Below, in pieces: positions 2,761-46,116 of a DNA stretch of 54,732 nucleotides. Location of the stretch: NCBI GenBank assembly GCA_032718475.1, contig JAUCBJ010006712.1, positions 1-54,732 on the forward strand. Direction: 5' to 3'. The notes under the pieces are model-generated. The model was not told the DNA's origin and did not search any database. It saw only the letters and a program-made list of their open reading frames with translations. A program made the translations under genes and the position numbers. This DNA comes from Nemertoderma westbladi. Lineage: Eukaryota; Animalia; Xenacoelomorpha. Position 1 is the stretch's first letter; each line of letters begins with the position of its first letter.

Positions 2761-3727
2761 ATGTCGCGTCACAGAGATATCCGTAACGCAGCGTACAGCG
2801 AGGAATACGCTGTTAGCTACGATGACGAGTACGGTTTGTCCGTTCCCGATTGCGACTACGCAATTTCTCCGCTAACGGCGCAACAGTTCCTCCTGTCTCG
2901 CAGCGTCGACAAACGACCGAATTTATCCAACTTTATCGACGGCGTTGACTCCCGAGGGATCCAACCGTCACGCATCGAATCCCCGCGGAACTCGTTAGAT
3001 GACGATCTCTCCGACCCGCTCGCTGAATCCCTGGACCTCCGCAGTCTTGGACTCAACGACGCGGAGTTCGCTCGCCTTATGGAAGGCTTGGATGAACTCG
3101 GTTCCATCGTCGGCGACACCATCCCGGAGAGCGTGTTGGTTAGAACTCTACTCGAATGTAACTACAACACGGAGCGAGCGATCGACTCGCTACATAATCC
3201 GAGTCCCACTGGCCGCGTGTTTCCAAACGACCCGCTAGGTCCGTCAGCCAGAGACTCCGTAGGTCGAGGGCGAAAGATTGGCGAAGTAGGGCGCGGCGTG
3301 GGCATAGTAGGGCGCGGTCTGAGCGTTGAGGGGCGTGTACTAGGTCCTGTGCCCATGGAAGAAGACGGATTATTGCCGGATACCGTGGCATCCAATGGGA
3401 ATCTGCCCGAACACCACGACGCAAAACCACATATAAACGGCGGTATAACCGCTTCTGTCGCCGCGATTAAAATCGACTCGGATGGTCCGAAACTTCCGGA
3501 GAGTCAACTGAAATGTTCCGGGGCCCCGGATACCGTGGTCAAACCGAAACTAGCTACTAGAGATGCCCCGCCGGCGAATCCGAAACCACGGGAACCTCGG
3601 GGCGGGAAGGGGTTGCTAAACCTTGTTGTGATCGGTCACGTGGACGCCGGGAAGAGCACGTTAATGGGTCACGTGCTGTACCAGCTGGGATGCGTTAATA
3701 AGAAGACAATGCATAAGTACGAGACAG
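2761..3727 (+). CDS. HBS1L: HBS1-like translational GTPase, coding exon 1 (HBS1 N-terminal domain, linker, G1 P-loop)
   Basis: N-terminus MSRHRDIRN...YAISPLTAQQFL and ARLMEGLDELGSIVGDTIPESVL resemble the HBS1L N-terminal domain. LNLVVIGHVDAGKSTLMGHVLYQLGCVNKKTMHKYET carries G1. Donor CAG|GTAGGT at 3727/3728, phase 1. Confidence 0.93.
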
Positions 3728-6700
3728 GTAGGTGGTGTGTTCGGTTAATGGGTCACGTGTTGTACCAGCTGGGATGCGTTAATAAGAAGACAATGCATAA
3801 GTACGAGACAGGTAGGTGGTGTGTTCGGTTAATGGGTCACGTGTTGTACCAGCTGGGATGCGTTAATATGAAGACAATAAATAAGTACGAGACAGGTAGG
3901 TGGTGTGTTGTACCAGCTGGGATGCGTTCATAAGAAGACAATGCATAAGTACGAGACAGGTAGGTGGTGTGTTCGGTTAATGGGTCACGTGCTGTTCCAG
4001 CTGGGATGCGTTAATATGAAGACAATAAATAAGTACGAGACAGGTAGGTGGTGTGTTGTACCAGCTGGGATGCGTTCATAAGAAGACAATGCATAAGTAC
4101 GAGACAGGTAGGTGGTGTGTTCGGTTAATGGGTCACGTGTTGTACCAGCTGGGATGCGTTAATAAGAAGATAATGCATAAGTACGAGACAGGTAGGTGGT
4201 GTGTTCGGTTAATGGGTCACGTGTTGTACCAGCTGGGATGCGTTAATAAGAAGACAATAAATAAGTACGAGACAGGTAGGTGGTGTGTTCAGTTAATGGG
4301 TCACGTGTTGTACCAGCTGGGATGCGTTAATATGAAGACAATGCATAAGTACGAGACAGGTAGGTGGTGTGTTCGGTTAATGGGTCACGTGTTGTACCAG
4401 CTGGGATGCGTTCATAAGAAGACAATGCATAAGTACGAGACAGGTAGGTGGTGTGTTCGGTTAATGGGTCACGTGTTGTACCAGCTGGGATGCGTTAATA
4501 AGAAGACAATAAATAAGTACGAGACAGGTAGGTGGTGTGTTCGGTTAATGGGTCACGTGTTGTACCAGCTGGGATGCGTTCATAAGAAGACAATAAATAA
4601 GTACGAGACAGGTAGGTGGTGTGTTCGGTTAATGGGTCACGTGTTGTACCAGCTGGGATGCGTTAATAAGAAGACAATAAATAAGTACGAGACAGGTAGG
4701 TGGTGTGTTCGGTTAATGGGTCACGCACGTGTTGTACCAGCTGGGATGCGTTAATAAGAAGACAATAAATAAGTACGAGACAGGTAGGTGGTGTGTTCGG
4801 TTAATGGGTCACGTGTTGTACCAGCTGGGATGCGTTCATAAGAAGACAATAAATAAGTACGAGACAGGTAGGTGGTGTGTTCGGTTAATGGGTCACGTGT
4901 TGTACCAGCTGGGATGCGTTCATAAGAAGACAATAAATAAGTACGAGACAGGTAGGTGGTGTGTTCAGTTAATGGGTCACGTGTTGTACCAGCTGGGATG
5001 CGTTAATAAGAAGACAATAAATAAGTACGAGACAGGTAGGTGGTGTGTTCGGTTAATGGGTCACGTGTTGTACCAGCTGGGATGCGTTCATAAGAAGACA
5101 ATAAATAAGTACGAGACAGGTAGGTGGTGTGTTCGGTTAATGGGTCACGTGTTGTACCAGCTGGGATGCGTTCATAAGAAGACAATAAATAAGTACGAGA
5201 CAGGTAGGTGGTGTGTTCAGTTAATGGGTCACGTGTTGTACCAGCTGGGATGCGTTCATAAGAAGACAATAAATAAGTACGAGACAGGTAGGTGGTGTGT
5301 TCGGTTAATGGGTCACGTGTTGTACCAGCTGGGATGCGTTAATATGAAGACAATAAATAAGTACGAGACAGGTAGGTGGTGTGTTCGGTTAATGGGTCAC
5401 GTGTTGTACCAGCTGGGATGCGTTCATAAGAAGACAATAAATAAGTACGAGACAGGTAGGTGGTGTGTTCGGTTAATGGGTCACGTGTTGTACCAGCTGG
5501 GATGCGTTCATAAGAAGACAATAAATAAGTACGAGACAGGTAGGTGGTGTGTTCAGTTAATGGGTCACGTGTTGTACCAGCTGGGATGCGTTCATAAGAA
5601 GACAATAAATAAGTACGAGACAGGTAGGTGGTGTGTTCGGTTAATGGGTCACGTGTTGTACCAGCTGGGATGCGTTAATATGAAGACAATAAATAAGTAC
5701 GAGACAGGTAGGTGGTGTGTTTGGTTAATGGGTCACGTGTTGTACCAGCTGGGATGCGTTAATAAGAAGACAATGCATAAGTACGAGACAGGTAGGTGGT
5801 GTGTTCGGTTAATGGGTCACGTGTTGTACCAGCTGGGATGCGTTAATAAGAAGACAATGCATAAGTACGAGACAGGTAGGTGGTGTGTTCGGTTAATGGG
5901 TCACGTGTTGTACCAGCTGGGATGCGTTAATATGAAGACAATGCATAAGTACGAGACAGGTAGGTGGTGTGTTCGGTTAATGGGTCACGTGTTGTACCAG
6001 CTGGGATGCGTTAATATGAAGACAATGCATAAGTACGAGACAGGTAGGTGGTGTGTTCGGTTAATGGGTCACGTGTTGTACCAGCTGGGATGCGTTCATA
6101 AGAAGACAATAAATAAGTACGAGACAGGTAGGTGGTGTGTTCGGTTAATGGGTCACGTGTTGTACCAGCTGGGATGCGTTAATATGAAGACAATAAATAA
6201 GTACGAGACAGGTAGGTGGTGTGTTCGGTTAATGGGTCACGTGTTGTACCAGCTGGGATGCGTTAATAAGAAGACAATAAATAAGTACGAGACAGGTAGG
6301 TGGTGTGTTCGGTTAATGGGTCACGTGTTGTACCAGCTGGGATGCGTTCATAAGAAGACAATGCATAAGTACGAGACAGATAGGTGGTGTGTTCGGTTAA
6401 TGGGTCACGTGTTGTACCAGCTGGGATGCGTTCATAAGAAGACAATGCATAAGTACGAGACAGGTAGGTGGTGTGTTCGGTTAATGGGTCACGTGTTGTA
6501 CCAGCTGGGATGCGTTAATAAGAAGACAATGCATAAGTACGAGACAGGTAGGTGGTGTGTTCGGTTAATGGGTCACGTGTTGTACCAGCTGGGATGCGTT
6601 AATAAGAAGACAATAAATAAGTACGAGACAGGTAGGTGGTGTGTTCAGTTAATGGGTCACGTGTTGTACCAGCTGGGATGCGTTCATAAGAAGACAATAA

Positions 6701-9700
6701 ATAAGTACGAGACAGGTAGGTGGTGTGTTCAGTTAATGGGTCACGTGTTGTACCAGCTGGGATGCGTTCATAAGAAGACAATAAATAAGTACGAGACAGG
6801 TAGGTGGTGTGTTCGGTTAATGGGTCACGTGTTGTACCAGCTGGGATGCGTTAATAAGAAGATAATGCATAAGTACGAGACAGGTAGGTGGTGTGTTCGG
6901 TTAATGGGTCACGTGTTGTACCAGCTGGGATGCGTTAATAAGAAGACAATAAATAAGTACGAGACAGGTAGGTGGTGTGTTCAGTTAATGGGTCACGTGT
7001 TGTACCAGCTGGGATGCGTTCATAAGAAGACAATAAATAAGTACGAGACAGGTAGGTGGTGTGTTCGGTTAATGGGTCACGTGCTGTACCAGCTGGGATG
7101 CGTTAATAAGAAAACAATGCATAAGTACGAGACAGGTAGGTGGTGTGTTCGGTTAATGGGTCACGTGTTGTACCAGCTGGGATGCGTTAATATGAAGACA
7201 ATAAATAAGTACGAGACAGGTAGGTGGTGTGTTCGGTTAATGGGTCACGTGTTGTACCAGCTGGGATGCGTTCATAAGAAGACAATGCATAAGTACGAGA
7301 CAGGTGTAGGTGGTGTGTTCGGTTAATGGGTCACGTGTTGTACCAGCTGGGATGCGTTAATATGAAGACAATAAATAAGTACGAGACAGGTAGGTGGTGT
7401 GTTCGGTTAATGGGTCACGTGTTGTACCAGCTGGGATGCGTTCATAAGAAGACAATGCATAAGTACGAGACAGGTGTAGGTGGTGTGTTCGGTTAATGGG
7501 TCACGTGTTGTACCAGCTGGGATGCGTTAATATGAAGACAATAAATAAGTACGAGACAGGTAGGTGGTGTGTTCGGTTAATGGGTCACGTGTTGTACCAG
7601 CTGGGATGCGTTCATAAGAAGACAATGCATAAGTACGAGACAGGTAGGTGGTGTGTTCGGTTAATGGGTCACGTGTTGTACCAGCTGGGATGCGTTAATA
7701 AGAAGACAATGCATAAGTACGAGACAGGTAGGTGGTGTGTTCGGTTAATGGGTCACGTGTTGTACCAGCTGGGATGCGTTAATAAGAAGACAATGCATAA
7801 GTACGAGACAGGTAGGTGGTGTGTTCGGTTAATGGGTCACGTGTTGTACCAGCTGGGATGCGTTCATAAGAAGACAATGCATAAGTACGAGACAGGTAGG
7901 TGGTGTGTTCGGTTAATGGGTCACGTGTTGTACCAGCTGGGATGCGTTAATAAGAAGACAATGCATAAGTACGAGACAGGTAGGTGGTGTGTTCGGTTAA
8001 TGGGTCACGTGTTGTACCAGCTGGGATGCGTTCATAAGAAGACAATGCATAAGTACGAGACAGGTAGGTGGTGTGTTCGGTTAATGGGTCACGTGTTGTA
8101 CCAGCTGGGATGCGTTAATATGACGACAATGCATAAGTACGAGACAGGTAGGTGGTGTGTTCGGTTAATGGGTCACGTGTTGTACCAGCTGGGATGCGTT
8201 CATAAGAAGACAATGCATAAGTACGAGACAGGTAGGTGGTGTGTTCGGTTAATGGGTCACGTGTTGTACCAGCTGGGATGCGTTAATAAGAAGACAATGC
8301 ATAAGTACGAGACAGGTAGGTGGTGTGTTCGGTTAATGGGTCACGTGTTGTACCAGCTGGGATGCGTTAATAAGAAGACAATGCATAAGTACGAGACAGG
8401 TAGGTGGTGTGTTCGGTTAATGGGTCACGTGTTGTACCAGCTGGGATGCGTTAATAAGAAGACAATGCATAAGTACGAGACAGGTAGGTGGTGTGTTCGG
8501 TTAATGGGTCACGTGTTGTACCAGCTGGGATGCGTTAATAAGAAGACAATGCATAAGTACGAGACAGGTAGGTGGTGTGTTCGGTTAATGGGTCACGTGT
8601 TGTACCAGCTGGGATGCGTTAATAAGAAGACAATGCATAAGTACGAGACAGGTAGGTGGTGTGTTCGGTTAATGGGTCACGTGTTGTACCAGCTGGGATG
8701 CGTTAATAAGAAGACAATGCATAAGTACGAGACAGGTAGGTGGTGTGTTCGGTTAATGGGTCACGTGTTGTACCAGCTGGGATGCGTTAATAAGAAGACA
8801 ATGCATAAGTACGAGACAGGTAGGTGGTGTGTTCGGTTAATGGGTCACGTGTTGTACCAGCTGGGATGCGTTAATAAGAAGACAATGCATAAGTACGAGA
8901 CAGGTAGGTGGTGTGTTCGGTTAATGGGTCACGTGTTGTACCAGCTGGGATGCGTTAATAAGAAGACAATGCATAAGTACGAGACAGGTAGGTGGTGTGT
9001 TCGGTTAATGGGTCACGTGTTGTACCAGCTGGGATGCGTTAATAAGAAGACAATGCATAAGTACGAGACAGGTAGGTGGTGTGTTCGGTTAATGGGTCAC
9101 GTGTTGTACCAGCTGGGATGCGTTAATAAGAAGACAATGCATAAGTACGAGACAGGTAGGTGGTGTGTTCGGTTAATGGGTCACGTGTTGTACCAGCTGG
9201 GATGCGTTAATAAGAAGACAATGCATAAGTACGAGACAGGTAGGTGGTGTGTTCGGTTAATGGGTCACGTGTTGTACCAGCTGGGATGCGTTAATAAGAA
9301 GACAATGCATAAGTACGAGACAGGTAGGTGGTGTGTTCGGTTAATGGGTCACGTGTTGTACCAGCTGGGATGCGTTAATAAGAAGACAATGCATAAGTAC
9401 GAGACAGGTAGGTGGTGTGTTCGGTTAATGGGTCACGTGTTGTACCAGCTGGGATGCGTTAATAAGAAGACAATGCATAAGTACGAGACAGGTAGGTGGT
9501 GTGTTCGGTTAATGGGTCACGTGTTGTACCAGCTGGGATGCGTTAATAAGAAGACAATGCATAAGTACGAGACAGGTAGGTGGTGTGTTCGGTTAATGGG
9601 TCACGTGTTGTACCAGCTGGGATGCGTTAATAAGAAGACAATGCATAAGTACGAGACAGGTAGGTGGTGTGTTCGGTTAATGGGTCACGTGTTGTACCAG

Positions 9701-12700
9701 CTGGGATGCGTTAATAAGAAGACAATGCATAAGTACGAGACAGGTAGGTGGTGTGTTCGGTTAATGGGTCACGTGTTGTACCAGCTGGGATGCGTTAATA
9801 AGAAGACAATGCATAAGTACGAGACAGGTAGGTGGTGTGTTCGGTTAATGGGTCACGTGTTGTACCAGCTGGGATGCGTTAATAAGAAGACAATGCATAA
9901 GTACGAGACAGGTAGGTGGTGTGTTCGGTTAATGGGTCACGTGTTGTACCAGCTGGGATGCGTTCATAAGAAGACAATGCATAAGTACGAGACAGGTAGG
10001 TGGTGTGTTCGGTTAATGGGTCACGTGTTGTACCAGCTGGGATGCGTTAATAAGAAGACAATGCATAAGTACGAGACAGGTAGGTGGTGTGTTCGGTTAA
10101 TGGGTCACGTGTTGTACCAGCTGGGATGCGTTAATAAGAAGACAATGCATAAGTACGAGACAGGTAGGTGGTGTGTTCGGTTAATGGGTCACGTGTTGTA
10201 CCAGCTGGGATGCGTTAATAAGAAGACAATGCATAAGTACGAGACAGGTAGGTGGTGTGTTCGGTTAATGGGTCACGTGTTGTACCAGCTGGGATGCGTT
10301 AATAAGAAGACAATGCATAAGTACGAGACAGGTAGGTGGTGTGTTCGGTTAATGGGTCACGTGTTGTACCAGCTGGGATGCGTTAATAAGAAGACAATGC
10401 ATAAGTACGAGACAGGTAGGTGGTGTGTTCGGTTAATGGGTCACGTGTTGTACCAGCTGGGATGCGTTAATAAGAAGACAATGCATAAGTACGAGACAGG
10501 TAGGTGGTGTGTTCGGTTAATGGGTCACGTGTTGTACCAGCTGGGATGCGTTAATAAGAAGACAATGCATAAGTACGAGACAGGTAGGTGGTGTGTTCGG
10601 TTAATGGGTCACGTGTTGTACCAGCTGGGATGCGTTAATAAGAAGACAATGCATAAGTACGAGACAGGTAGGTGGTGTGTTCGGTTAATGGGTCACGTGT
10701 TGTACCAGCTGGGATGCGTTAATAAGAAGACAATGCATAAGTACGAGACAGGTAGGTGGTGTGTTCGGTTAATGGGTCACGTGTTGTACCAGCTGGGATG
10801 CGTTAATAAGAAGACAATGCATAAGTACGAGACAGGTAGGTGGTGTGTTCGGTTAATGGGTCACGTGTTGTACCAGCTGGGATGCGTTAATAAGAAGACA
10901 ATGCATAAGTACGAGACAGGTAGGTGGTGTGTTCGGTTAATGGGTCACGTGTTGTACCAGCTGGGATGCGTTCATAAGAAGACAATGCATAAGTACGAGA
11001 CAGGTAGGTGGTGTGTTCAGTTAATGGGTCACGTGTTGTACCAGCTGGGATGCGTTAATAAGAAGACAATGCATAAGTACGAGACAGGTAGGTGGTGTGT
11101 TCGGTTAATGGGTCACGTGTTGTACCAGCTGGGATGCGTTAATAAGAAGACAATGCATAAGTACGAGACAGGTAGGTGGTGTGTTCGGTTAATGGGTCAC
11201 GTGTTGTACCAGCTGGGATGCGTTAATAAGAAGACAATGCATAAGTACGAGACAGGTAGGTGGTGTGTTCGGTTAATGGGTCACGTGTTGTACCAGCTGG
11301 GATGCGTTAATAAGAAGACAATGCATAAGTACGAGACAGGTAGGTGGTGTGTTCAGTTAATGGGTCACGTGTTGTACCAGCTGGGATGCGTTAATAAGAA
11401 GACAATGCATAAGTACGAGACAGGTAGGTGGTGTGTTCGGTTAATGGGTCACGTGTTGTACCAGCTGGGATGCGTTAATAAGAAGACAATGCATAAGTAC
11501 GAGACAGGTAGGTGGTGTGTTCGGTTAATGGGTCACGCACGTGTTGTACCAGCTGGGATGCGATAATAAGAAGACAATGCATAAGTACGAGACAGGTAGG
11601 TGGTGTGTTCGGTTAATGGGTCACGTGTTGTACCAGCTGGGATGCGTTCATAAGAAGACAATGCATAAGTACGAGACAGGTAGGTGGTGTGTTCGGTTAA
11701 TGGGTCACGTGTTGTACCAGCTGGGATGCGTTAATATGAAGACAATAAATAAGTACGAGACAGGTAGGTGGTGTGTTCGGTTAATGGGTCACGTGTTGTA
11801 CCAGCTGGGATGCGTTCATAAGAAGACAATGCATAAGTACGAGACAGGTAGGTGGTGTGTTCGGTTAATGGGTCACGTGTTGTACCAGCTGGGATGCGTT
11901 AATATGAAGACAATAAATAAGTACGAGACAGGTAGGTGGTGTGTTCGGTTAATGGGTCAGGTGTTGTACCAGCTGGGATGCGATAATAAGAAGACAATGC
12001 ATAAGTACGAGACAGGTAGGTGGTGTGTTCGGTTAATGGGTCACGTGTTGTACCAGCTGGGATGCGTTCATAAGAAGACAATGCATAAGTACGAGACAGG
12101 TAGGTGGTGTGTTCGGTTAATGGGTCACGTGTTGTACCAGCTGGGATGCGTTAATATGAAGACAATAAATAAGTACGAGACAGGTAGGTGGTGTGTTCGG
12201 TTAATGGGTCACGTGTTGTACCAGCTGGGATGCGTTAATATGAAGACAATAAATAAGTACGAGACAGGTAGGTGGTGTGTTCGGTTAATGGGTCACGTGT
12301 TGTACCAGCTGGGATGCGTTAATATGAAGACAATGCATAAGTACGAGACAGGTAGGTGGTGTGTTCGGTTAATGGGTCACGTGTTGTACCAGCTGGGATG
12401 CGTTCATAAGAAGACAATGCATAAGTACGAGACAGGTAGGTGGTGTGTTCGGTTAATGGGTCACGTGTTGTACCAGCTGGGATGCGTTAATATGAAGACA
12501 ATAAATAAGTACGAGACAGGTAGGTGGTGTGTTCGGTTAATGGGTCACGTGTTGTACCAGCTGGGATGCGTTAATAAGAAGACAATGCATAAGTACGAGA
12601 CGGGTAGGTGGTGTGTTCGGTTAATGGGTCAGGTGTTGTACCAGCTGGGATGCGATAATAAGAAGACAATGCATAAGTACGAGATAGGTAGGTGGTGTGT

Positions 12701-15700
12701 TCGGTTAATGGGTCACGTGTTGTACCAGCTGGGATGCGTTCATAAGAAGACAATGCATAAGTACGAGATAGGTAGGTGGTGTGTTCGGTTAATGGGTCAC
12801 GTGTTGTACCAGCTGGGATGCGTTAATAAGAAGACAATGCATAAGTACGAGACAGGTAGGTGGTGTGTTCAGTTAATGGGTCACGTGTTGTACCAGCTGG
12901 GATGCGTTAATAAGAAGACAATGCATAAGTACGAGATAGGTAGGTGGTGTGTTCGGTTAATGGGTCACGTGTTGTACCAGCTGGGATGCGTTAATAAGAA
13001 GACAATGCATAAGTACGAGATAGGTAGGTGGTGTGTTCGGTTAATGGGTCACGTGTTGTACCAGCTGGGAGGCGTTCATAAGAAGACAATGCATAAGTAC
13101 GAGATAGGTAGGTGGTGTGTTCGGTTAATGGGTCACGTGTTGTACCAGCTGGGATGCGTTCATAAGAAGACAATGCATAAGTACGAGACAGGTAGGTGGT
13201 GTGTTCGGTTAATGGGTCACGTGTTGTACCAGCTGGGATGCGTTCATAAGAAGACAATGCATAAGTACGAGACAGGTAGGTGGTGTGTTCGGTTAATGGG
13301 TCACGTGTTGTACCAGCTGGGATGCGTTAATAAGATGACAATGCATAAGTACGAGACAGGTAGGTGGTGTGTTCGGTTAATGGGTCACGTGTTGTACCAG
13401 CTGGGATGCGTTAATAAGAAGACAATGCATAAGTACGAGACAGGTAGGCGGTGTGTTCGGTTAATGGGTCACGTGTTGTACCAGCTGGGATGCGTTCATA
13501 AGAAGACAATGCATAAGTACGAGACAGGTAGGTGGTGTGTTCAGTTAATGGGTCACGTGTTGTACCAGCTGGGATGCGTTAATATGAAGACAATGCATAA
13601 GTACGAGACAGGTAGGTGGTGTGTTCGGTTAATGGGTCAGGTGTTGTACCAGCTGGGATGCGTTCATAAGAAGACAATGCATAAGTACGAGACAGGTAGG
13701 TGGTGTGTTCGGTTAATGGGTCACGTGTTGTACCAGCTGGGATGCGTTCATAAGAAGACAATGCATAAGTACGAGACAGGTAGGTGGTGTGTTCGGTTAA
13801 TGCGTCACGTGTTGTACCAGCTGGGATGCGTTAATAAGAAGACAATGCATAAGTACGAGACAGGTAGGTGGTGTGTTCGGTTAATGGGTCACGTGTTGTA
13901 CCAGCTGGGATGCGTTAATAAGAAGACAATGCATAAGTACGAGACAGGTAGGTGGTGTGTTCGGTTAATGGGTCACGTGTTGTACCAGCTGGGATGCGTT
14001 AATAAGAAGACAATGCATAAGTACGAGACAGGTAGGTGGTGTGTTCGGTTAATGGGTCACGTGTTGTACCAGCTGGGATGCGTTAATAAGAAGACAATGC
14101 ATAAGTACGAGACGGGTAGGTGGTGTGTTCGGTTAATGGGTCACGTGTTGTACCAGCTGGGATGCGTTAATAAGAAGACAATGCATAAGTACGAGACAGG
14201 TAGGTGGTGTGTTCGGTTAATGGGTCACGTGTTGTACCAGCTGGGATGCGTTAATAAGAAGACAATGCATAAGTACGAGACAGGTAGGTGGTGTGTTCAG
14301 TTAATGGGTCACGTGTTGTACCAGCTGGGATGCGTTAATAAGAAGACAATGCATAAGTACGAGACAGGTAGGTGGTGTATTCGGTTAATAGGTCACGTGT
14401 TGTACCAGCTGGGATGCGTTAATAAGAAGACAATGCATAAGTACGAGACAGGTAGGTGGTGTGTTCGGTTAATGGGTCACGTGTTGTACCAGCTGGGATG
14501 CGTTAATAAGAAGACAATGCATAAGTACGAGACAGGTAGGTGGTGTGTTCGGTTAATGGGTCACGTGTTGTACCAGCTGGGATGCGTTCATAAGAAGACA
14601 ATGCATAAGTACGAGACAGGTAGGTGGTGTGTTCGGTTAATGGGTCACGTGTTGTACCAGCTGGGATGCGTTCATAAGAAGACAATGCATAAGTACAAGT
14701 ACAAGACAGGTAGGTGGTGTGTTCGGTTAATGGGTCACGTGTTGTACCAGCTGGGATGGATGCGTTAATAAGAAGACAATGCATAAGTACGAGACAGGTA
14801 GGTGGTGTGTTCGGTTAATGGGTCACGTGTTGTACCAGCTGGGATGCGTTCATAAGAAGACAATAAATAAGTACGAGACAGGTAGGTGGTGTGTTCGGTT
14901 AATGGGTCACGTGTTGTACCAGCTGGGATGCGTTAATAAGAAGACAATGCATAAGTACGAGACAGGTAGGTGGTGTGTTCGGTTAATGGGTCACGTGCTG
15001 TACCAGCTGGGATGCGTTAATAAGAAGACAATGCATAAGTACGAGACAGGTAGGTGGTGTGTTCGGTTAATGGGTCACGTGCTGTACCAGCTGGGATGCG
15101 TTAATAAGAAGACAATGCATAAGTACGAGACAGGTAGGTGGTGTGTTCGGTTAATGGGTCACGTGTTGTACCAGCTGGGATGCGTTAATAAGAAGACAAT
15201 GCATAAGTACGAGACGGGTAGGTGGTGTGTTCGGTTAATGGGTCACGTGTTGTACCAGCTGGGATGCGTTAATAAGAAGACAATGCATAAGTACGAGACA
15301 GGTAGGTGGTGTGTTCGGTTAATGGGTCACGTGTTGTACCAGCTGGGATGCGTTCATAAGAAGACAATGCATAAGTACGAGACAGGTAGGCGGTGTGTTC
15401 GGTTAATGGGTCACGTGTTGTACCAGCTGGGATGCGTTAATAAGAAGACAATGCATAAGTACGAGACAGGTAGGTGGTGTGTTCAGTTAATGGGTCACGT
15501 GTTGTACCAGCTGGGATGCGTTAATAAGAAGACAATGCATAAGTACGAGACAGGTAGGCGGTGTGTTCGGTTAATGGGTCACGTGTTGTACCAGCTGGGA
15601 TGCGTTAATAAGAAGACAATGCATAAGTACGAGACAGGTAGGTGGTGTGTTCGGTTAATGGGTCACGTGTTGTACCAGCTGGGATGCGTTAATAAGAAGA

Positions 15701-27000: not shown

Positions 27001-30000
27001 TGGTGTGTTCGGTTAATGGGTCACGTGTTGTACCAGCTGGGATGCGTTCATAAGAAGACAATGCATAAGTACGAGACAGGTAGGCGGTGTGTTCGGTTAA
27101 TGGGTCACGTGTTGTACCAGCTGGGATGCGTTAATATGAAGACAATGCATAAGTACGAGACAGGTAGGTGGTGTGTTCGGTTAATGGGTCACGTGTTGTA
27201 CCAGCTGGGATGCGTTAATAAGAAGACAATGCATAAGTACGAGACAGGTAGGTGGTGTGTTCGGTTAATGGGTCACGTGTTGTACCAGCTGGGATGCGTT
27301 AATAAGAAGACAATGCATAAGTACGAGACAGGTAGGTGGTGTGTTCAGTTAATGGGTCACGTGTTGTACCAGCTGGGATGCGTTCATAAGAAGACAATGC
27401 ATAAGTACGAGACAGGTAGGCGGTGTGTTCGGTTAATGGGTCACGTGTTGTACCAGCTGGGATGCGTTAATATGAAGACAATGCATAAGTACGAGACAGG
27501 TAGGTGGTGTGTTCGGTTAATGGGTCACGTGTTGTACCAGCTGGGATGCGTTCATAAGAAGACAATGCATAAGTACGAGACAGGTAGGCGGTGTGTTCGG
27601 TTAATGGGTCACGTGTTGTACCAGCTGGGATGCGTTAATATGAAGACAATGCATAAGTACGAGACAGGTAGGTGGTGTGTTCGGTTAATGGGTCACGTGT
27701 TGTACCAGCTGGGATGCGTTAATAAGAAGACAATGCATAAGTACGAGACAGGTAGGTGGTGTGTTCAGTTAATGGGTCACGTGTTGTACCAGCTGGGATG
27801 CGTTAATAAGAAGACAATGCATAAGTACGAGACAGGTAGGCGGTGTGTTCGGTTAATGGGTCACGTGTTGTACCAGCTGGGATGCGTTAATAAGAAGACA
27901 ATGCATAAGTACGAGACAGGTAGGTGGTGTGTTCGGTTAATGGGTCACGTGTTGTACCAGCTGGGATGCGTTAATAAGAAGACAATGCATAAGTACGAGA
28001 CAGGTAGGCGGTGTGTTCGGTTAATGGGTCACGTGTTGTACCAGCTGGGATGCGTTAATAAGAAGACAATGCATAAGTACGAGACAGGTAGGTGGTGTGT
28101 TCGGTTAATGGGTCACGTGTTGTACCAGCTGGGATGCGTTAATAAGAAGACAATGCATAAGTACGAGACAGGTAGGTGGTGTGTTCGGTTAATGGGTCAC
28201 GTGTTGTACCAGCTGGGATGCGTTAATAAGAAGACAATGCATAAGTACGAGACGGGTAGGTGGTGTGTTCGGTTAATGGGTCACGTGTTGTACCAGCTGG
28301 GATGCGTTAATAAGAAGACAATGCATAAGTACGAGACGGGTAGGTGGTGTGTTCGGTTAATGGGTCACGTGTTGTACCAGCTGGGATGCGTTCATAAGAA
28401 GACAATGCATAAGTACGAGACAGGTAGGCGGTGTGTTCGGTTAATGGGTCACGTGTTGTACCAGCTGGGATGCGTTAATAAGAAGACAATGCATAAGTAC
28501 GAGACAGGTAGGTGGTGTGTTCAGTTAATGGGTCACGTGTTGTACCAGCTGGGATGCGTTAATAAGAAGACAATGCATAAGTACGAGACAGGTAGGCGGT
28601 GTGTTCGGTTAATGGGTCACGTGTTGTACCAGCTGGGATGCGTTAATAAGAAGACAATGCATAAGTACGAGACAGGTAGGTGGTGTGTTCGGTTAATGGG
28701 TCACGTGTTGTACCAGCTGGGATGCGTTAATAAGAAGACAATGCATAAGTACGAGACAGGTAGGTGGTGTGTTCAGTTAATGGGTCACGTGTTGTACCAG
28801 CTGGGATGCGTTAATAAGAAGAGAATGCATAAGTACGAGACAGGTAGGTGGTGTGTTCGGTTAATGGGTCACGTGTTGTACCAGCTGGGATGCGTTAATA
28901 TGAAGACAATGCATAAGTACGAGACAGGTAGGTGGTGTGTTCGGTTAATGGGTCAGGTGTTGTACCAGCTGGGATGCGTTCATAAGAAGACAATGCATAA
29001 GTACGAGACAGGTAGGCGGTGTGTTCGGTTAATGGGTCACGTGTTGTACCAGCTGGGATGCGTTAATAAGAAGACAATGCATAAGTACGAGACAGGTAGG
29101 TGGTGTGTTCAGTTAATGGGTCACGTGTTGTACCAGCTGGGATGCGTTAATAAGAAGACAATGCATAAGTACGAGACAGGTAGGCGGTGTGTTCGGTTAA
29201 TGGGTCACGTGTTGTACCAGCTGGGATGCGTTAATAAGAAGACAATGCATAAGTACGAGACAGGTAGGTGGTGTGTTCGGTTAATGGGTCACGTGTTGTA
29301 CCAGCTGGGATGCGTTAATAAGAAGACAATGCATAAGTACGAGACAGGTAGGTGGTGTGTTCAGTTAATGGGTCACGTGTTGTACCAGCTGGGATGCGTT
29401 AATAAGAAGAGAATGCATAAGTACGAGACAGGTAGGTGGTGTGTTCGGTTAATGGGTCACGTGTTGTACCAGCTGGGATGCGTTAATATGAAGACAATGC
29501 ATAAGTACGAGACAGGTAGGTGGTGTGTTCGGTTAATGGGTCAGGTGTTGTACCAGCTGGGATGCGTTCATAAGAAGACAATGCATAAGTACGAGACAGG
29601 TAGGTGGTGTGTTCGGTTAATGGGTCACGTGTTGTACCAGCTGGGATGCGTTAATAAGAAGACAATGCATAAGTACGAGACAGGTAGGTGGTGTGTTCGG
29701 TTAATGGGTCACGTGTTGTACCAGCTGGGATGCGTTAATAAGAAGACAATGCATAAGTACGAGACAGGTAGGTGGTGTGTTCAGTTAATGGGTCACGTGT
29801 TGTACCAGCTGGGAGGCGTTCATAATAAGACAATGCATAAGTACGAGACAGGTAGGTGGTGTGTTCGGTTAATGGGTCACGTGTTGTACCAGCTGGGATG
29901 CGTTCATAAGAAGACAATGCATAAGTACGAGACAGGTAGGTGGTGTGTTCGGTTAATGCGTCACGTGTTGTACCAGCTGGGATGCGTTCATAAGAAGACA

Positions 30001-33000
30001 ATGCATAAGTACGAGACAGGTAGGTGGTGTGTTCAGTTAATGGGTCACGTGTTGTACCAGCTGGGATGCGTTAATATGAAGACAATGCATAAGTACGAGA
30101 CAGGTAGGTGGTGTGTTCGGTTAATGGGTCAGGTGTTGTACCAGCTGGGATGCGTTCATAAGAAGACAATGCATAAGTACGAGACAGGTAGGTGGTGTGT
30201 TCGGTTAATGGGTCACGTGTTGTACCAGCTGGGATGCGTTAATAAGAAGACAATGCATAAGTACGAGACAGGTAGGTGGTGTGTTCGGTTAATGGGTCAC
30301 GTGTTGTACCAGCTGGGATGCGTTAATAAGAAGACAATGCATAAGTACGAGACAGGTAGGTGGTGTGTTCGGTTAATGGGTCACGTGTTGTACCAGCTGG
30401 GATGCGTTCATAAGAAGACAATGCATAAGTACGAGACAGGTAGGTGGTGTGTTCGGTTAATGCGTCACGTGTTGTACCAGCTGGGATGCGTTCATAAGAA
30501 GACAATAAATAAGTACGAGACAGGTAGGTGGTGTGTTCGGTTAATGGGTCACGTGCTGTACCAGCTGGGATGCGTTAATAAGAAGACAATGCATAAGTAC
30601 GAGACAGGTAGGTGGTGTGTTCGGTTAATGGGTCACGTGTTGTACCAGCTGGGATGCGTTAATAAGAAGACAATGCATAAGTACGAGACGGGTAGGTGGT
30701 GTGTTCTGTTAATGGGTCACATGTTGTACCAGCTGGGAGGCGTTAATAAGAAGACAATGCATAAGTACGAGACAGGTAGGTGGTGTGTTCGGTTAATGGG
30801 TCACGTGTTGTACCAGCTGGGATGCGTTAATAAGAAGACAATGCATAAGTACGAGACAGGTAGGTGGTGTGTTCGGTTAATGGGTCACATGTTGTACCAG
30901 CTGGGATGCGTTAATAAGAAGACAATGCATAAGTACGAGACAGGTAGGTGGTGTGTTCGGTTAATGGGTCACGTGCTGTACCAGCTGGGATGCGTTAATA
31001 TGACGACAATGCATAAGTACGAGACAGGTAGGTGGTGTGTTCGGTTAATGGGTCACGTGTTGTACCAGCTGGGATGCGTTAATAAGAAGACAATGCATAA
31101 GTACGAGACAGGTAGGTGGTGTGTTCGGTTAATGGGTCACGTGTTGTACCAGCTGGGATGCGTTAATAAGAAGACAATGCATAAGTACGAGACAGGTAGG
31201 TGGTGTGTTCGGTTAATGGGTCACGTGTTGTACCAGCTGGGATGCGTTAATAAGAAGACAATGCATAAGTACGAGACAGGTAGGTGGTGTGTTCGGTTAA
31301 TGGGTCACGTGTTGTACCAGCTGGGATGCGTTAATAAGAAGACAATGCATAAGTACGAGACAGGTAGGTGGTGTGTTCGGTTAATGGGTCACGTGTTGTA
31401 CCAGCTGGGATGCGTTCATAAGAAGACAATGCATAAGTACGAGACAGGTAGGTGGTGTGTTCGGTTAATGGGTCACGTGTTGTACCAGCTGGGATGCGTT
31501 AATAAGAAGACAATGCATAAGTACGAGACGGGTAGGTGGTGTGTTCGGTTAATGGGTCACGTGCTGTACCAGCTGGGATGCGTTAATAAGAAGACAATGC
31601 ATAAGTACGAGACAGGTAGGTGGTGTGTTCGGTTAATGGGTCACGTGCTGTACCAGCTGGGATGCGTTAATAAGAAGACAATGCATAAGTACGAGACAGG
31701 TAGGTGGTGTGTTCGGTTAATGGGTCACGTGTTGTACCAGCTGGGATGCGTTAATAAGAAGACAATGCATAAGTACGAGACAGGTAGGTGGTGTGTTCGG
31801 TTAATGGGTCACGTGTTGTACCAGCTGGGATGCGTTAATAAGAAGACAATGCATAAGTACGAGACAGGTAGGTGGTGTGTTCGGTTAATGGGTCACGTGT
31901 TGTACCAGCTGGGATGCGTTAATAAGAAGACAATGCATAAGTACGAGACAGGTAGGTGGTGTGTTCGGTTAATGGGTCACGTGTTGTACCAGCTGGGATG
32001 CGTTAATAAGAAGACAATGCATAAGTACGAGACAGGTAGGTGGTGTGTTCGGTTAATGGGTCACGTGTTGTACCAGCTGGGATGCGTTAATAAGAAGACA
32101 ATGCATAAGTACGAGACAGGTAGGTGGTGTGTTCGGTTAATGGGTCACGTGTTGTACCAGCTGGGATGCGTTCATAAGAAGACAATGAATAAGTACGAGA
32201 CAGGTAGGTGGTGTGTTCGGTTAATGGGTCACGTGTTGTACCAGCTGGGATGCGTTAATAAGAAGACAATGCATAAGTACGAGACAGGTAGGTGGTGTGT
32301 TCGGTTAATGGGTCACGTGTTGTACCAGCTGGGATGCGTTAATAAGAAGACAATGCATAAGTACGAGACAGGTAGGTGGTGTGTTCGGTTAATGGGTCAC
32401 GTGTTGTACCAGCTGGGATGCGTTCATAAGAAGACAATGCATAAGTACGAGACAGGTAGGTGGTGTGTTCGGTTAATGGGTCACGTGTTGTACCAGCTGG
32501 GATGCGTTAATAAGAAGACAATGCATAAGTACGAGACAGGTAGGTGGTGTGTTCGGTTAATGGGTCACGTGTTGTACCAGCTGGGATGCGTTAATAAGAA
32601 GACAATGCATAAGTACGAGACAGGTAGGTGGTGTGTTCGGTTAATGGGTCACGTGTTGTACCAGCTGGGATGCGTTAATAAGAAGACAATGCATAAGTAC
32701 GAGACAGGTAGGTGGTGTGTTCGGTTAATGGGTCACGTGTTGTACCAGCTGGGATGCGTTCATAAGAAGACAATGCATAAGTACGAGACAGGTAGGTGGT
32801 GTGTTCGGTTAATGGGTCACGTGTTGTACCAGCTGGGATGCGTTAATAAGAAGACAATGCATAAGTACGAGACAGGTAGGTGGTGTGTTCGGTTAATGGG
32901 TCACGTGTTGTACCAGCTGGGATGCGTTAATAAGAAGACAATGCATAAGTACGAGACAGGTAGGTGGTGTGTTCGGTTAATGGGTCACGTGTTGTACCAG

Positions 33001-36000
33001 CTGGGATGCGTTAATAAGAAGACAATGCATAAGTACGAGACAGGTAGGTGGTGTGTTCGGTTAATGGGTCACGTGTTGTACCAGCTGGGATGCGTTAATA
33101 AGAAGACAATGCATAAGTACGAGACAGGTAGGTGGTGTGTTCGGTTAATGGGTCACGTGTTGTACCAGCTGGGATGCGTTAATAAGAAGACAATGCATAA
33201 GTACGAGACAGGTAGGTGGTGTGTTCAGTTAATGGGTCACGTGTTGTACCAGCTGGGATGCGTTCATAAGAAGACAATGCATAAGTACGAGACAGGTAGG
33301 TGGTGTGTTCGGTTAATGGGTCACGTGTTGTACCAGCTGGGATGCGTTCATAAGAAGACAATGCATAAGTACGAGACAGGTAGGTGGTGTGTTCGGTTAA
33401 TGGGTCACGTGTTGTACCAGCTGGGATGCGTTCATAAGAAGACAATGCATAAGTACGAGACAGGTAGGTGGTGTGTTCGGTTAATGGGTCACGTGTTGTA
33501 CCAGCTGGGATGCGTTCATAAGAAGACAATGCATAAGTACGAGACAGGTAGGTGGTGTGTTCGGTTAATGGGTCACGTGTTGTACCAGCTGGGATGCGTT
33601 CATAAGAAGACAATGCATAAGTACGAGACAGGTAGGTGGTGTGTTCGGTTAATGGGTCACGTGTTGTACCAGCTGGGATGCGTTCATAAGAAGACAATGC
33701 ATAAGTACGAGACAGGTAGGTGGTGTGTTCGGTTAATGGGTCACGTGTTGTACCAGCTGGGATGCGTTCATAAGAAGACAATGCATAAGTACGAGACAGG
33801 TAGGTGGTGTGTTCGGTTAATGGGTCACGTGTTGTACCAGCTGGGATGCGTTCATAAGAAGACAATGCATAAGTACGAGACAGGTAGGTGGTGTGTTCGG
33901 TTAATGGGTCACGTGTTGTACCAGCTGGGATGCGTTAATAAGAAGACAATGCATAAGTACGAGACAGGTAGGTGGTGTGTTCGGTTAATGGGTCACGTGT
34001 TGTACCAGCTGGGATGCGTTAATAAGAAGACAATGCATAAGTACGAGACAGGTAGGTGGTGTGTTCGGTTAATGGGTCACGTGTTGTACCAGCTGGGATG
34101 CGTTAATAAGAAGACAATGCATAAGTACGAGACAGGTAGGTGGTGTGTTCGGTTAATGGGTCACGTGTTGTACCAGCTGGGATGCGTTCATAAGAAGACA
34201 ATGCATAAGTACGAGACAGGTAGGTGGTGTGTTCGGTTAATGGGTCACGTGTTGTACCAGCTGGGATGCGTTCATAAGAAGACAATGCATAAGTACGAGA
34301 CAGGTAGGTGGTGTGTTCGGTTAATGGGTCACGTGTTGTACCAGCTGGGATGCGTTAATAAGAAGACAATGCATAAGTACGAGACAGGTAGGTGGTGTGT
34401 TCGGTTAATGGGTCACGTGTTGTACCAGCTGGGATGCGTTCATAAGAAGACAATGCATAAGTACGAGACAGGTAGGTGGTGTGTTCGGTTAATGGGTCAC
34501 GTGTTGTACCAGCTGGGATGCGTTCATAAGAAGACAATGCATAAGTACGAGACAGGTAGGTGGTGTGTTCGGTTAATGGGTCACGTGTTGTACCAGCTGG
34601 GATGCGTTAATATGAAGACAATGCATAAGTACGAGACAGGTAGGTGGTGTGTTCGGTTAATGGGTCACGTGTTGTACCAGCTGGGATGCGTTCATAAGAA
34701 GACAATGCATAAGTACGAGACAGGTAGGTGGTGTGTTCGGTTAATGGGTCACGTGTTGTACCAGCTGGGATGCGTTCATAAGAAGACAATGCATAAGTAC
34801 GAGACAGGTAGGTGGTGTGTTCGGTTAATGGGTCACGTGTTGTACCAGCTGGGATGCGTTCATAAGAAGACAATGCATAAGTACGAGACAGGTAGGTGGT
34901 GTGTTCGGTTAATGGGTCACGTGTTGTACCAGCTGGGATGCGTTCATAAGAAGACAATGCATAAGTACGAGACAGGTAGGTGGTGTGTTCGGTTAATGGA
35001 TCACGTGTTGTACCAGCTGGGATGCGAATAAGAAGACAATGCATAAGTACGAGACAGGTAGGTGGTGTGTTCGGTTAATGGGTCACGTGTTGTACCAGCT
35101 GGGATGCGTTCATAAGAAGACAATGCATAAGTACGAGACTGGTAGGTGGTGTGTTCGGTTAATGGATCACGTGTTGTACCAGCTGGGATGCGTTCATAAG
35201 AAGACAATGCATAAGTACGAGACTGGTAGGTGGTGTGTTCGGTTAATGGATCACGTGTTGTACCAGCTGGGATGCGTTCATAAGAAGACAATGCATAAGT
35301 ACGAGACTGGTAGGTGGTGTGTTCGGTTAATGGGTCACGTGTTGTACCAGCTGGGATGCGTTCATAAGAAGACAATGCATAAGTACGAGACTGGTAGGTG
35401 GTGTGTTCGGTTAATGGGTCACGTGTTGTACCAGCTGGGATGCGTTCATAAGAAGACAATGCATAAGTACGAGACTGGTAGGTGGTGTGTTCGGTTAATG
35501 GGTCACGTGTTGTACCAGCTGGGATGCGTTCATAAGAAGACAATGCATAAGTACAAGTACAAGACAGGTAGGTGGTGTGTTCGGTTAATGGGTCACGTGT
35601 TGTACCAGCTGGGATGCGTTAATAAGAAGACAATGCATAAGTACGAGACTGGTAGGTGGTGTGTTCGGTTAATGGATCACGTGTTGTACCAGCTGGGATG
35701 CGTTCATAAGAAGACAATAAATAAGTACGAGACAGGTAGGTGGTGTGTTCGGTTAATGGGTCACGTGTTGTACCAGCTGGGATGCGTTAATAAGAAGACA
35801 ATGCATAAGTACGAGACAGGTAGGTGGTGTGTTCGGTTAATGGGTCACGTGTTGTACCAGCTGGGATGCGTTCATAAGAAGACAATAAATAAGTACGAGA
35901 CAGGTAGGTGGTGTGTTCGGTTAATGGGTCACGTGCTGTACCAGCTGGGATGCGTTAATAAGAAGACAATGCATAAGTACGAGACAGGTAGGTGGTGTGT

Positions 36001-38180
36001 TCGGTTAATGGGTCACGTGTTGTACCAGCTGGGATGCGTTAATAAGAAGACAATGCATAAGTACGAGACAGGTAGGTGGTGTGTTCGGTTAATGGGTCAC
36101 GTGTTGTACCAGCTGGGATGCGTTCATAAGAAGACAATAAATAAGTACGAGACAGGTAGGTGGTGTGTTCGGTTAATGGGTCACGTGTTGTACCAGCTGG
36201 GATGCGTTCATAAGAAGACAATGCATAAGTACGAGACTGGTAGGTGGTGTGTTCGGTTAATGGATCACGTGTTGTACCAGCTGGGATGCGTTCATAAGAA
36301 GACAATGCATAAGTACGAGACTGGTAGGTGGTGTGTTCGGTTAATGGATCACGTGTTGTACCAGCTGGGATGCGTTCATAAGAAGACAATGCATAAGTAC
36401 AAGTACAAGACAGGTAGGTGGTGTGTTCGGTTAATGGGTCACGTGTTGTACCAGCTGGGATGCGTTAATAAGAAGACAATGCATAAGTACGAGACAGGTA
36501 GGTGGTGTGTTCGGTTAATGGGTCACGTGTTGTACCAGCTGGGATGCGTTAATAAGAAGACAATGCATAAGTACGAGACAGGTAGGTGGTGTGTTCAGTT
36601 AATGGGTCACGTGTTGTACCAGCTGGGATGCGATAATAAGAAGACAATGCATAAGTACGAGACAGGTAGGTGGTGTGTTCGGTTAATGGGTCACGTGTTG
36701 TACCAGCTGGGATGCGTTAATAAGAAGACAATGCATAAGTACGAGACAGGTAGGTGGTGTGTTCGGTTAATGGGTCACGTGTTGTACCAGCTGGGATGCG
36801 TTCATAAGAAGACAATGCATAAGTACAAGTACAAGACAGGTAGGTGGTGTGTTCGGTTAATGGGTCACGTGTTGTACCAGCTGGGATGCGTTAATAAGAA
36901 GACAATGCATAAGTACGAGACAGGTAGGTGGTGTGTTCGGTTAATGGGTCACGTGTTGTACCAGCTGGGATGCGTTAATAAGAAGACAATGCATAAGTAC
37001 GAGACAGGTAGGTGGTGTGTTCGGTTAATGGGTCACGTGTTGTACCAGCTGGGATGCGTTAATATGAAGACAATGCATAAGTACGAGACAGGTAGGTGGT
37101 GTGTTCGGTTAATGGGTCACGTGTTGTACCAGCTGGGATGCGTTCATAAGAAGACAATAAATAAGTACGAGACAGGTAGGTGGTGTGTTCGGTTAATGGG
37201 TCACGTGCTGTACCAGCTGGGATGCGTTCATAAGAAGACAATGCATAAGTACGAGACAGGTAGGTGGTGTGTTCGGTTAATGGGTCACGTGTTGTACCAG
37301 CTGGGATGCGTTAATAAGAAGACAATGCATAAGTACGAGACAGGTAGGTGGTGTGTTCGGTTAATGGGTCACGTGTTGTACCAGCTGGGATGCGTTAATA
37401 TGAAGACAATAAATAAGTACGAGACAGGTAGGTGGTGTGTTCGGTTAATGGGTCACGTGTTGTACCAGCTGGGATGCGTTCATAAGAAGACAATGCATAA
37501 GTACGAGACAGGTAGGTGGTGTGTTCGGTTAATGGGTCACGTGTTGTACCAGCTGGGATGCGTTCATAAGAAGACAATGCATAAGTACGAGACAGGTAGG
37601 TGGTGTGTTCGGTTAATGGTTCACGTGTTGTACCAGCTGGGATGCGTTAATAAGAAGACAATGCATAAGTACGAGACAGGTAGGTGGTGTGTTCGGTTAA
37701 TGGGTCACGTGTTGTACCAGCTGGGATGCGTTAATAAGAAGACAATAATTAAGTACGAGACAGGTAGGTGGTGTGTTCGGTTAATGGGTCACGTGTTGTA
37801 CCAGCTGGGATGCGTTAATATGAAGACAATGCATAAGTACGAGACAGGTAGGTGGTGTGTTCGGTTAATGGGTCACGTGTTGTACCAGCTGGGATGCGTT
37901 AATAAGAAGACAATGCATAAGTACGAGACAGGTAGGTGGTGTGTTCGGTTAATGGGTCACGTGTTGTACCAGCTGGGATGCGTTAATATGAAGACAATGC
38001 ATAAGTACGAGACAGGTAGGTGGTGTGTTCGGTTAATGGGTCACGTGTTGTACCAGCTGGGATGCGTTAATATGAAGACAATGCATAAGTACGAGACAGG
38101 TAGGTGGTGTGTTCGGTTAATGGGTCACGTGTTGTACCAGCTGGGATGCGTTAATAAGAAGACAATGCATAAGTACGAGA
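24054..38180 (+). repeat. 84-bp tandem array, right segment (~168 units)
   Basis: Same unit as the left segment. The last unit ends at gtacgaga (38180) and has no GT donor. Confidence 0.98.
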
Positions 38181-38694
38181 AAGGAACAAGGGTGCCCAGC
38201 CCATATTTAAAGGATATGAAAGTACTTACTTTTAACTATGAGTTATATTAAAGTTTTAATGCAGATGGCCCATGTGAAGTTTACCACACTACCTGCTGTT
38301 ATATTTCGCTTTGTAGTTTACCCCAATGTGAAGAATGCAATTTTTTCAAATACCCAGGTTTCAGAAGGGCTGAATCTAACCAAAGCAATAAACCAATTTG
38401 CATCTGTACTGTACAGGTTACAATGGAGAAATCAGCATCAGCGCTATAAAGCACCCTTTATAATAATAAAAAAATTTGAAAAATACCGATTCTTCATATA
38501 AAATTCCAATTAAAATTTGACAGAAAAATTAAAACCTAGTATTCTTCACATTGGCGATACACATCAACACATCATATTGTACCGACCAGCTAAAATGACA
38601 GTAAAAATTATTAAATTGAAGTTGCATTGAATTATTTGAATAATATTTACACTGTATAGGGAAAATGTACATAATTGTAATTTGTTTCTCGCAG

Positions 38695-46110: not shown

Positions 46111-46116
46111 ATGACT

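What the first reader, a model, noticed from the sequence alone, without database searches (positions are those of the whole stretch)
3661..38694. HBS1L intron built from ~368 tandem copies of its own exon end and 5' splice site
Seen: the 84-bp unit is the last 67 nt of exon 1 plus intron nt 1-17, so nearly every unit carries CAG|GTAGGT in the same upstream context as the true donor. Only ~0.5 kb of the 35-kb intron is unique. Both exons are intact and joining at the first donor gives a normal 710-aa HBS1L. Inference: the spliceosome must choose the donor farthest from the acceptor over hundreds of identical decoys. Because 84 is a multiple of 3, donors 2 and 3 would insert 28-aa blocks between the P-loop and switch I. 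From memory (please verify), boundary-spanning minisatellites called 'mirages' were reported in amphioxus. A 31-kb one in a housekeeping GTPase would be an extreme test of co-transcriptional first-come donor choice.
Basis: partly seen in the sequence, partly recalled or inferred. Interest (0 to 1): 0.92.

Follow-up and report, generated by a model that had tools for sequence, protein, structure and literature searches.

The report
Giant splice-donor satellite in HBS1L intron
In an invertebrate animal, the end of the first exon of the ribosome-rescue gene HBS1L, splice signal included, is repeated about 368 times across a 35-kb intron that also holds a 3.6-kb transposon, yet the one assembled transcript is cut at the first signal, so this is likely a tolerated, very large case of a repeat type already known from human and lancelet genes.

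Summary
The array is real: 368 donor-like sites (307 of the 367 found by motif read CAG|GTAGGT), 84-bp units about 97.7% alike, filling 88% of a 34,967-nt intron. DNA runs of two samples show the unit at hundreds of times flank depth. One run that behaves as RNA (other alleles) holds a single contig joining 3727 to 38695 with exon-1 sequence upstream, so the first donor is used; contigs drop rare forms, so decoy use is not measured. Only donors 2-3 stay in frame; 364 of 367 meet a stop at 3931. This is the arrangement of human F7, CBS, IFI6, LMNB2 and PDGF minisatellites and lancelet 'mirages' (3-26 copies in the papers read), about 14-fold larger. Likely mechanism: neutral repeat expansion, tolerated because the most upstream donor is committed first. 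The scan has noted many such arrays, some larger, on other pieces of this genome and in other animals (unchecked notes); that genome-wide habit, not this locus, is the interesting part.

The parts
2704..3727 (+). HBS1L exon 1 (ATG at 2761; HBS1 N-terminal region, linker, P-loop); 5' end at or upstream of 2704
   Evidence: ORF; Pfam HBS1_N E 1.9e-5 (25.4 bits, just under the 26.4 cut-off) and GTP_EFTU E 1.9e-8; run X4 contig covers 2704-3727
3660..3743 (+). First 84-bp unit: last 68 nt of exon 1 plus first 16 nt of the intron, holding the donor that is used (3727|3728, CAG|GTAGGT)
   Evidence: junction
3744..20438 (+). Array, 5' arm (decoy donors 2 onward); 64-nt frameshifting units 3 and 5; AATAAA variant in 29 of the first 47 units
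3931..3933 (+). First in-frame stop met by read-through or by splicing from donor 4 or later (390-aa product)
20439..24053 (-). 3,615-bp DNA transposon (hATm-like), 12-nt terminal inverted repeats (11 of 12 match), 8-bp target duplication AGGTAGGT = donor positions -2 to +6, predicted intact two-exon 779-aa transposase
   Evidence: 331 homologues, best 36-37% identity, none named as a family; no Pfam hit
24054..38184 (+). Array, 3' arm; last donor at 38100; last unit ends without a donor
   Evidence: run X3 contig bridges 38137-38381
38185..38694 (+). 510-nt non-array intron tail with a high-copy repeat and the T-rich acceptor
38695..39959 (+). HBS1L exon 2 (rest of G domain, domains 2 and 3; stop 39858-39860; poly(A) tail after 39959 in one contig)

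Best explanation
This is a satellite grown from a tandem duplication of the exon 1 end and its donor; the assembled transcript is spliced at the first donor, likely because the donor nearest the cap and made first is committed before the copies can compete, so the array is likely neutral passenger DNA. Shown: anatomy, presence in two DNA samples, first-donor junction in one RNA-like run. Inferred: growth by slippage and unequal exchange (local homogenisation, duplicated 5-7-unit blocks, ragged edges); survival because a duplication that includes the donor pushes all copies into the intron; no acceptor lies upstream of any decoy, so none can define an exon; rare slips to donor 4 or later would meet a stop at 3931 and would likely be degraded; the dense U1 sites would likely mask the 45 AATAAA variants. 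The transposon inserted later, into one donor copy.
For: Run X4: one 1,911-nt contig (depth 837) maps to 2704-3727 and continues with exon 2; the letters before the unit are exon-1 letters. Depth over the intron 16-mer is fully explained by that contig alone (254.9 and 596.3 are its pro-rata values). 233 of 234 homologues with both flanking motifs have the 38-residue spacing of the first-donor product. No sign of selection on the copies: of 36 distinct substitutions 1 makes a stop (2.4 expected from 17 of 252 possible), 5 are silent (7.1 expected), 5 fall in donor positions -3 to +6 (3.9 expected) (counts; events are not independent). Unit differences rise from 1.58 (neighbours) to 2.25 (300 apart) and blocks of up to 7 units recur, one on both sides of the transposon. 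Unit AG has 30% pyrimidine upstream against 65% at the true acceptor. In human F7, mutation of 50 constructs showed the most upstream identical donor is chosen even when later ones stay in frame (PMC1557585).
Against: RNA evidence is contigs of one run labelled 'DNA?' that I read as RNA; contigs drop rare forms and a filter removes some records, so decoy use is not bounded. The X4 individual's array length is unknown. Steady-state RNA cannot separate first-donor choice from decay for donors 4 and later. Run X5 holds a unit-to-unit contig at depth 334 beside a poly(A)-tailed exon-2 contig at 134.5: array sequence may be present in RNA. In human IFI6 and CBS the next one or two pseudo-donors are used (as cited in PMC1557585), and here those two would be in frame. 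Co-transcriptional commitment, NMD and U1 masking were not tested in this animal.
Confidence: 0.75

Rival explanations
1. Decoy donors are used often, and decay of the products (stop at 3931, 110 nt or more upstream of the junction from donor 5 on) leaves only the first-donor mRNA visible; the early 64-nt units would then be a safeguard.
For: 364 of 367 donors give a premature stop; both 64-nt frameshift units lie within the first five units. The last decoy is only about 0.6 kb from the acceptor against 35 kb for donor 1.
Against: Donors 2 and 3 would escape decay in this haplotype, yet X4 shows one unbroken contig and no cover of the intron 16-mer. Array edges are known to escape homogenisation (PMC3087553), which explains odd early units. 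In F7 in-frame pseudo-sites stay unused.
Confidence: 0.1
2. The array is a tunable control element: U1 bound every 84 nt holds back cleavage at the AATAAA variants, and when U1 is short the transcript ends early as a 390-aa GTPase-less HBS1L.
For: 45 AATAAA in the array, 29 in the first 47 units, the first 148 nt after donor 1. Run X5 has array contigs beside a poly(A)-tailed 3' end and no cover of the high-copy tail repeat. HBS1L in other animals makes a GTPase-less isoform (PMC6143672).
Against: Clustering of one variant is what local homogenisation gives. The X5 unit contig matches the non-AATAAA unit. X4 has no read-through contig. The SKI7 Patch-4 motif is absent from all six frames of the window, so a short product would not be a SKI7.
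Confidence: 0.06
3. The intron is removed stepwise: each CAG|GT junction acts as an acceptor that regenerates a donor (recursive splicing), which yields the same mRNA.
For: Every intact unit has AG directly before GT; the mature junction could not tell this from one-step splicing.
Against: The 20 nt upstream of the unit AG are 30% pyrimidine, against 65% at the acceptor that is used; 22 years of F7-type cases need no such step (inference).
Confidence: 0.04
4. The long array is an assembly inflation or one allele's peculiarity, and the expressed gene has a short intron.
For: No record spans the array; the RNA comes from another individual; depth sums are not copy numbers (tool caveat).
Against: Summed depth on the unit over exon-1 depth is about 330 in X1 (matches the window letter for letter over exon 1; may be its source), about 409 in X2 and 260-463 in X3. 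An X3 contig bridges the donor-less last unit into the tail, so further units must lie upstream. 36 substitution types, ordered blocks and a transposon with a perfect target duplication are not what a collapsed or looped assembly makes.
Confidence: 0.05

Closest known systems
Human donor-spanning minisatellites: F7 intron 7 (37 bp, 5-9 copies), IFI6/6-16 (25 pseudo-sites), CBS intron 13 (15-20), LMNB2 (100 bp, 10-15), PDGF intron 4 (81 bp, 16-18); PMC1557585 (abstract, introduction and whole discussion read; the other four genes only as cited there)
   Same: First monomer spans the exon-intron boundary; identical donors follow; the most upstream one is used.
   Different: 368 sites over 34.5 kb, about 14 times the largest listed; 68 of 84 nt are coding; first exon (cap-defined) rather than an internal exon; a transposon sits inside; no use of the next pseudo-donors seen, unlike IFI6 and CBS.
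Amphioxus 'mirage' minisatellites (Adh3, globins BflGb6 and BflGb9, troponin C, PGBD5); PMC3087553 and PMC3902484 (matching passages read; Adh3 and troponin C as cited there)
   Same: Tandem copies of an exon-intron boundary in an invertebrate; normal splicing kept; homogenised middle with divergent edges.
   Different: Copy numbers in the passages read are 2-7; here hundreds. The animal is not amphioxus (exon-1 protein 34% to Branchiostoma HBS1L).
Internal tandem repeats at exon-intron boundaries of human segmental-duplication genes; PMC2812944 (passages)
   Same: Repeats at boundaries that can be spliced out.
   Different: There they often make new introns or alternative forms; here none was seen.
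hATm DNA transposons (for the insert); PMC6004678 (passages)
   Same: 8-bp target duplication; termini close to TAGGGTG (5 of 7 and 6 of 7).
   Different: No PF05699 hit; homologues unnamed; family not established.

Membership tests
Junction-spanning minisatellite ('mirage' / F7 type) | Head-to-tail repeat whose first unit spans an exon-intron boundary | tested here: met
   boundary confirmed by spliced contig
Junction-spanning minisatellite ('mirage' / F7 type) | Splice site reiterated, identical to the authentic one | tested here: met
   307 of 367 motif sites CAG|GTAGGT, 366 of 367 keep GT
Junction-spanning minisatellite ('mirage' / F7 type) | Normal mRNA still made from the exon-proximal site | tested here: met
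   one contig of one RNA-like run; rare forms not visible
Junction-spanning minisatellite ('mirage' / F7 type) | Concerted evolution inside, divergent edges | tested here: met
   difference rises with distance, repeated blocks, 64-nt units at the 5' edge, donor-less last unit
Junction-spanning minisatellite ('mirage' / F7 type) | Copy-number polymorphism or instability | tested here: inconclusive
   depth ratios 330, 409, 260-463 are order-of-magnitude only
Junction-spanning minisatellite ('mirage' / F7 type) | Pseudo-donors work when the upstream one is mutated (oriented choice) | not testable with these tools
   needs a minigene; shown for F7 in PMC1557585
HBS1L translational GTPase | HBS1 N-terminal domain plus EF-Tu-type G domain and domains 2, 3; nearest relatives HBS1-like | tested here: met
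   (HBS1_N just under its cut-off); best 120 of 4,223 hits are HBS1-like or unnamed, 58-62%
hATm transposon (insert) | 8- or 9-bp target duplication | tested here: met
   AGGTAGGT on both sides
hATm transposon (insert) | TAGGGTG termini | tested here: inconclusive
   TAAAGTG and TAGAGTG (consensus)
hATm transposon (insert) | hAT dimerisation domain PF05699 | tested here: not met
   no Pfam family at E 0.01; so called hATm-like only
Recursive-splicing site | AG|GT preceded by a polypyrimidine tract | tested here: not met
   30% pyrimidine in the 20 nt upstream; the defining feature is recalled

The most novel reading that the evidence does not exclude
This animal amplifies its own splice junctions to satellite size across the genome by a process aimed at junctions (for example slippage or RNA-templated repair where the polymerase and U1 engage a donor), not merely by survival of chance duplications. 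HBS1L would be one of dozens of natural experiments in which one donor wins over hundreds of identical ones, U1 on the copies masks dozens of poly(A) signals, and array variants that change invariant residues threaten the coding exon by gene conversion.
Probability: 0.2. Interest if true: 0.7.

Novelty: new member of a known kind. Interest (0 to 1): 0.33.

Why it matters
How a cell picks one 5' splice site among identical ones is a long-argued question; PMC1557585 calls such minisatellites an outstanding physiological model but had 5-26 copies. Here 367 decoys, the last about 60 times closer to the acceptor than the real donor, still lose in the assembled mRNA, which makes a strong natural test of first-come choice against proximity and decay. 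Practically, such arrays will mislead gene predictors (open frames of 1,154 and 859 codons of repeated HBS1L peptide). The locus alone is an oversized example; a junction-targeted amplification process across the genome would be new.

Tried and rejected
No whole genome is held, so the genome-wide count and the search for a second HBS1L locus could not be run. No RNA holder listed among the 8 runs; X4 was recognised as RNA-like only from its spliced contig. Exon 2 has no cover in X2 and X3 although says they hold it (0.95, 0.87): a filter hole, not used. X4's lack of intron cover is used only together with the contig that joins across it. No close relative of the protein was found (best 62% for exon 2, 37-40% for exon 1), so no orthologous locus could be compared and the animal was not placed. 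Selection on the copies as coding sequence or as donors: no signal. A Fisher test on AATAAA clustering was dropped because units are not independent. The last four lines were mis-indexed and are not used; the column table above them is. No tRNA gene. The Atlas did not run for the transposase. PMC8724738 passages gave nothing on duplicated donors. Paper searches for larger or genome-wide junction arrays found none: 0 papers; 2; 3; 5, one relevant and already seen; 1, not relevant; the library lacks most subscription papers, so this is not proof that none is in print. No earlier scan note on this window, on HBS1L or on the transposon. The 63-bp array at 40668-42739 could not be tied to any exon.

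Full report
Observation. The window holds a two-exon HBS1L gene: coding exon 1 at 2761-3727, a 34,967-nt GT..AG intron, exon 2 at 38695-39860; the join gives 710 aa. Pfam finds HBS1_N (just under its cut-off) and the EF-Tu-type domains, and the best 120 of 4,223 hits are HBS1-like or unnamed at 58-62%. The 84-bp unit is the last 68 nt of exon 1 plus 16 intron bases (67+17 is the same thing, one G being shared). A donor motif with up to one mismatch gives 367 sites, 307 of them CAG|GTAGGT and 366 with GT; one more lies left of an insertion, 368 in all. 352 of 366 spacings are 84; the 352 units differ by 1.95 of 84 letters on average. A 28-nt unit pattern matches 363 times against 0 in 100 shuffles. 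The last unit stops before its donor.

Correction. The intron is not array plus 0.5 kb. A 3,615-bp element at 20439-24053 interrupts it: 12-nt inverted termini, an 8-bp target duplication equal to donor positions -2 to +6, and a predicted intact two-exon 779-aa protein on the minus strand, with 331 unnamed homologues at up to 37% and no Pfam hit. Target length and termini resemble hATm transposons (PMC6004678 passages), but the hAT dimerisation domain was not found, so I call it hATm-like only. The intron is 88.2% array, 10.3% transposon, 1.5% tail.

Is it real? Eight runs were listed, five holding exon 2, none on record as RNA; I laid X1-X4 on 2300-3743 and X2-X5 on 38097-40060, each stretch with one unit. 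Summed depth on the unit over exon-1 depth is about 330 in X1 (no letter differences in exon 1; perhaps the window's source, so not independent), about 409 in X2 and 260-463 in X3, which carry other alleles. The tool warns that these sums are not copy numbers; I take them as 'hundreds'. An X3 contig bridges the donor-less last unit into the tail (38137-38381). No record spans the array.

Which donor is used? Run X4 holds one 1,911-nt contig at depth 837 whose first part maps to 2704-3727 and whose rest maps to exon 2; its loose end after 3727 is the start of exon 2, and the letters before the unit are exon-1 letters, not the intron 16-mer. Depth over the intron 16-mer equals the pro-rata share of this contig alone. 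So X4 behaves as RNA and the dominant mRNA uses donor 1. Limits: one run, contigs only, another individual whose array length is unknown, rare forms dropped. Against a fully silent array: run X5 has a unit-to-unit contig at depth 334 beside a poly(A)-tailed exon-2 contig at 134.5; spread over 368 copies this would be under 1% per copy, but it could also be shorter read-through RNA, and the library type is unknown. Protein context agrees with donor 1: 233 of 234 homologues with both flanking motifs (236 examined) have the same 38-residue spacing, the exception being a partial Nematostella model.

What decoy use would give. Donors 2 and 3 add 28 or 56 residues in frame; units 3 and 5 are 64 nt, so 364 of 367 donors meet a stop at 3931-3933, 26 nt before the junction for donor 4 and 110 nt or more from donor 5 on. 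The copies show no selection as coding sequence or as donors: of 36 distinct substitutions 1 is a stop (2.4 expected), 5 are silent (7.1), 5 hit donor positions (3.9) (not independent events). Differences rise with distance (1.58 to 2.25) and 5-7-unit blocks recur, one on both sides of the transposon, as slippage and unequal exchange would give (inference). The unit's AG has a purine-rich upstream (30% pyrimidine against 65% at the true acceptor), so it is a poor acceptor; recursive splicing and pseudo-exons are unlikely. A variant creates AATAAA in 45 units, 29 among the first 47; X4 shows no read-through contig.

Mechanism. Most likely (0.75): a duplication that included the donor placed all copies in the intron; the array then grew neutrally; the donor nearest the cap, made first, is committed before the others compete; slips beyond donor 3 would be degraded; U1 on the copies would mask the poly(A) signals. 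Shown: anatomy, presence in two samples, first-donor junction. Inferred: everything about commitment, decay and masking. Rivals: frequent decoy use hidden by decay (0.10), U1-sensitive control element (0.06), short expressed allele or artefact (0.05), recursive splicing (0.04).

What is known. [quoted passage not shown] PMC3087553 and PMC3902484 (passages) describe amphioxus 'mirages' of 2-7 units that leave splicing intact. PMC2812944 (passages) covers boundary repeats in human duplicated genes. PMC11207136 (search listing only) concerns satellite-filled giant introns in flies. Supplements of these papers were not read and may list longer arrays. My searches for arrays of hundreds of junction copies found no paper, within a library that lacks most subscription journals.

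Scan context. Unchecked notes of this scan describe many such donor and acceptor satellites on other pieces of this same genome, with 400-1,300 copies (tensin, CstF-77, PRP8, GALNS, beta-catenin and others), and smaller ones in abalone, cephalopod, annelid and comb jelly. One note reports use of an inner variant donor, one suggests an acoel host; I could test none, as no genome is held. They do not support my reading as evidence, but they moved my novel case from this locus to the genome-wide habit.

Verdict. A real, new and very large member of a known kind, with the expected outcome. Interest 0.33 for the locus; a junction-aimed amplification process across the genome (probability 0.2) would deserve about 0.7.

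Noticed in passing
window 20431-20438 and 24054-24061: The transposon's 8-bp target duplication is exactly donor positions -2 to +6, so the insertion made one more donor copy. Chance (1 register of 84) or target preference; the element looks intact (predicted 779 aa) and so likely recent.
   Followed up: partly
window 3876-7600: A two-base unit variant creates AATAAA (45 units, 29 among the first 47) and would change Met and His residues that are invariant in 233 of 233 homologues: a possible source of harmful gene conversion into exon 1. The live exon differs from the array consensus only by one silent base, shared with 14 other units.
   Followed up: partly
whole window: No SKI7 Patch-4 motif in any frame, whereas 10 of 236 homologue models carry it (motif per PMC6143672). 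This two-exon HBS1L seems to lack the SKI7 exon; human HBS1L has 18 exons. SKI7 may be a separate gene or lost.
   Followed up: partly
run X5 on window 38097-38180 and 39536-39959: A small run with a unit-to-unit contig (depth 334), a contig joining 30 nt of the unit to about 330 foreign letters (depth 38) and a poly(A)-tailed 3' end (depth 134.5), but no cover of the high-copy tail repeat. Library type unknown; chimera or array RNA.
   Followed up: no
P0021 (Nematostella model): Has 13 extra residues at the position of this intron, as an ill-predicted intron edge would give; a weak hint that the intron position is old and predates the array.
   Followed up: no
window 40668-42739: Second tandem array, 63 bp x 33, just after a tRNA-like stretch near 40530-40615 that ARAGORN does not call; not tied to an exon.
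   Followed up: partly
window 1-2350 and 46125-47355: Two copies of one LINE-like element (RVT_1 E 9.5e-29 for 321-1820); its 3' end has very high depth in all four runs. Another reverse-transcriptase-like fragment at about 44980-46120 by eye (no Pfam hit).
   Followed up: partly
window 51134-52240 minus strand: 369-codon open frame with no Pfam hit.
   Followed up: no
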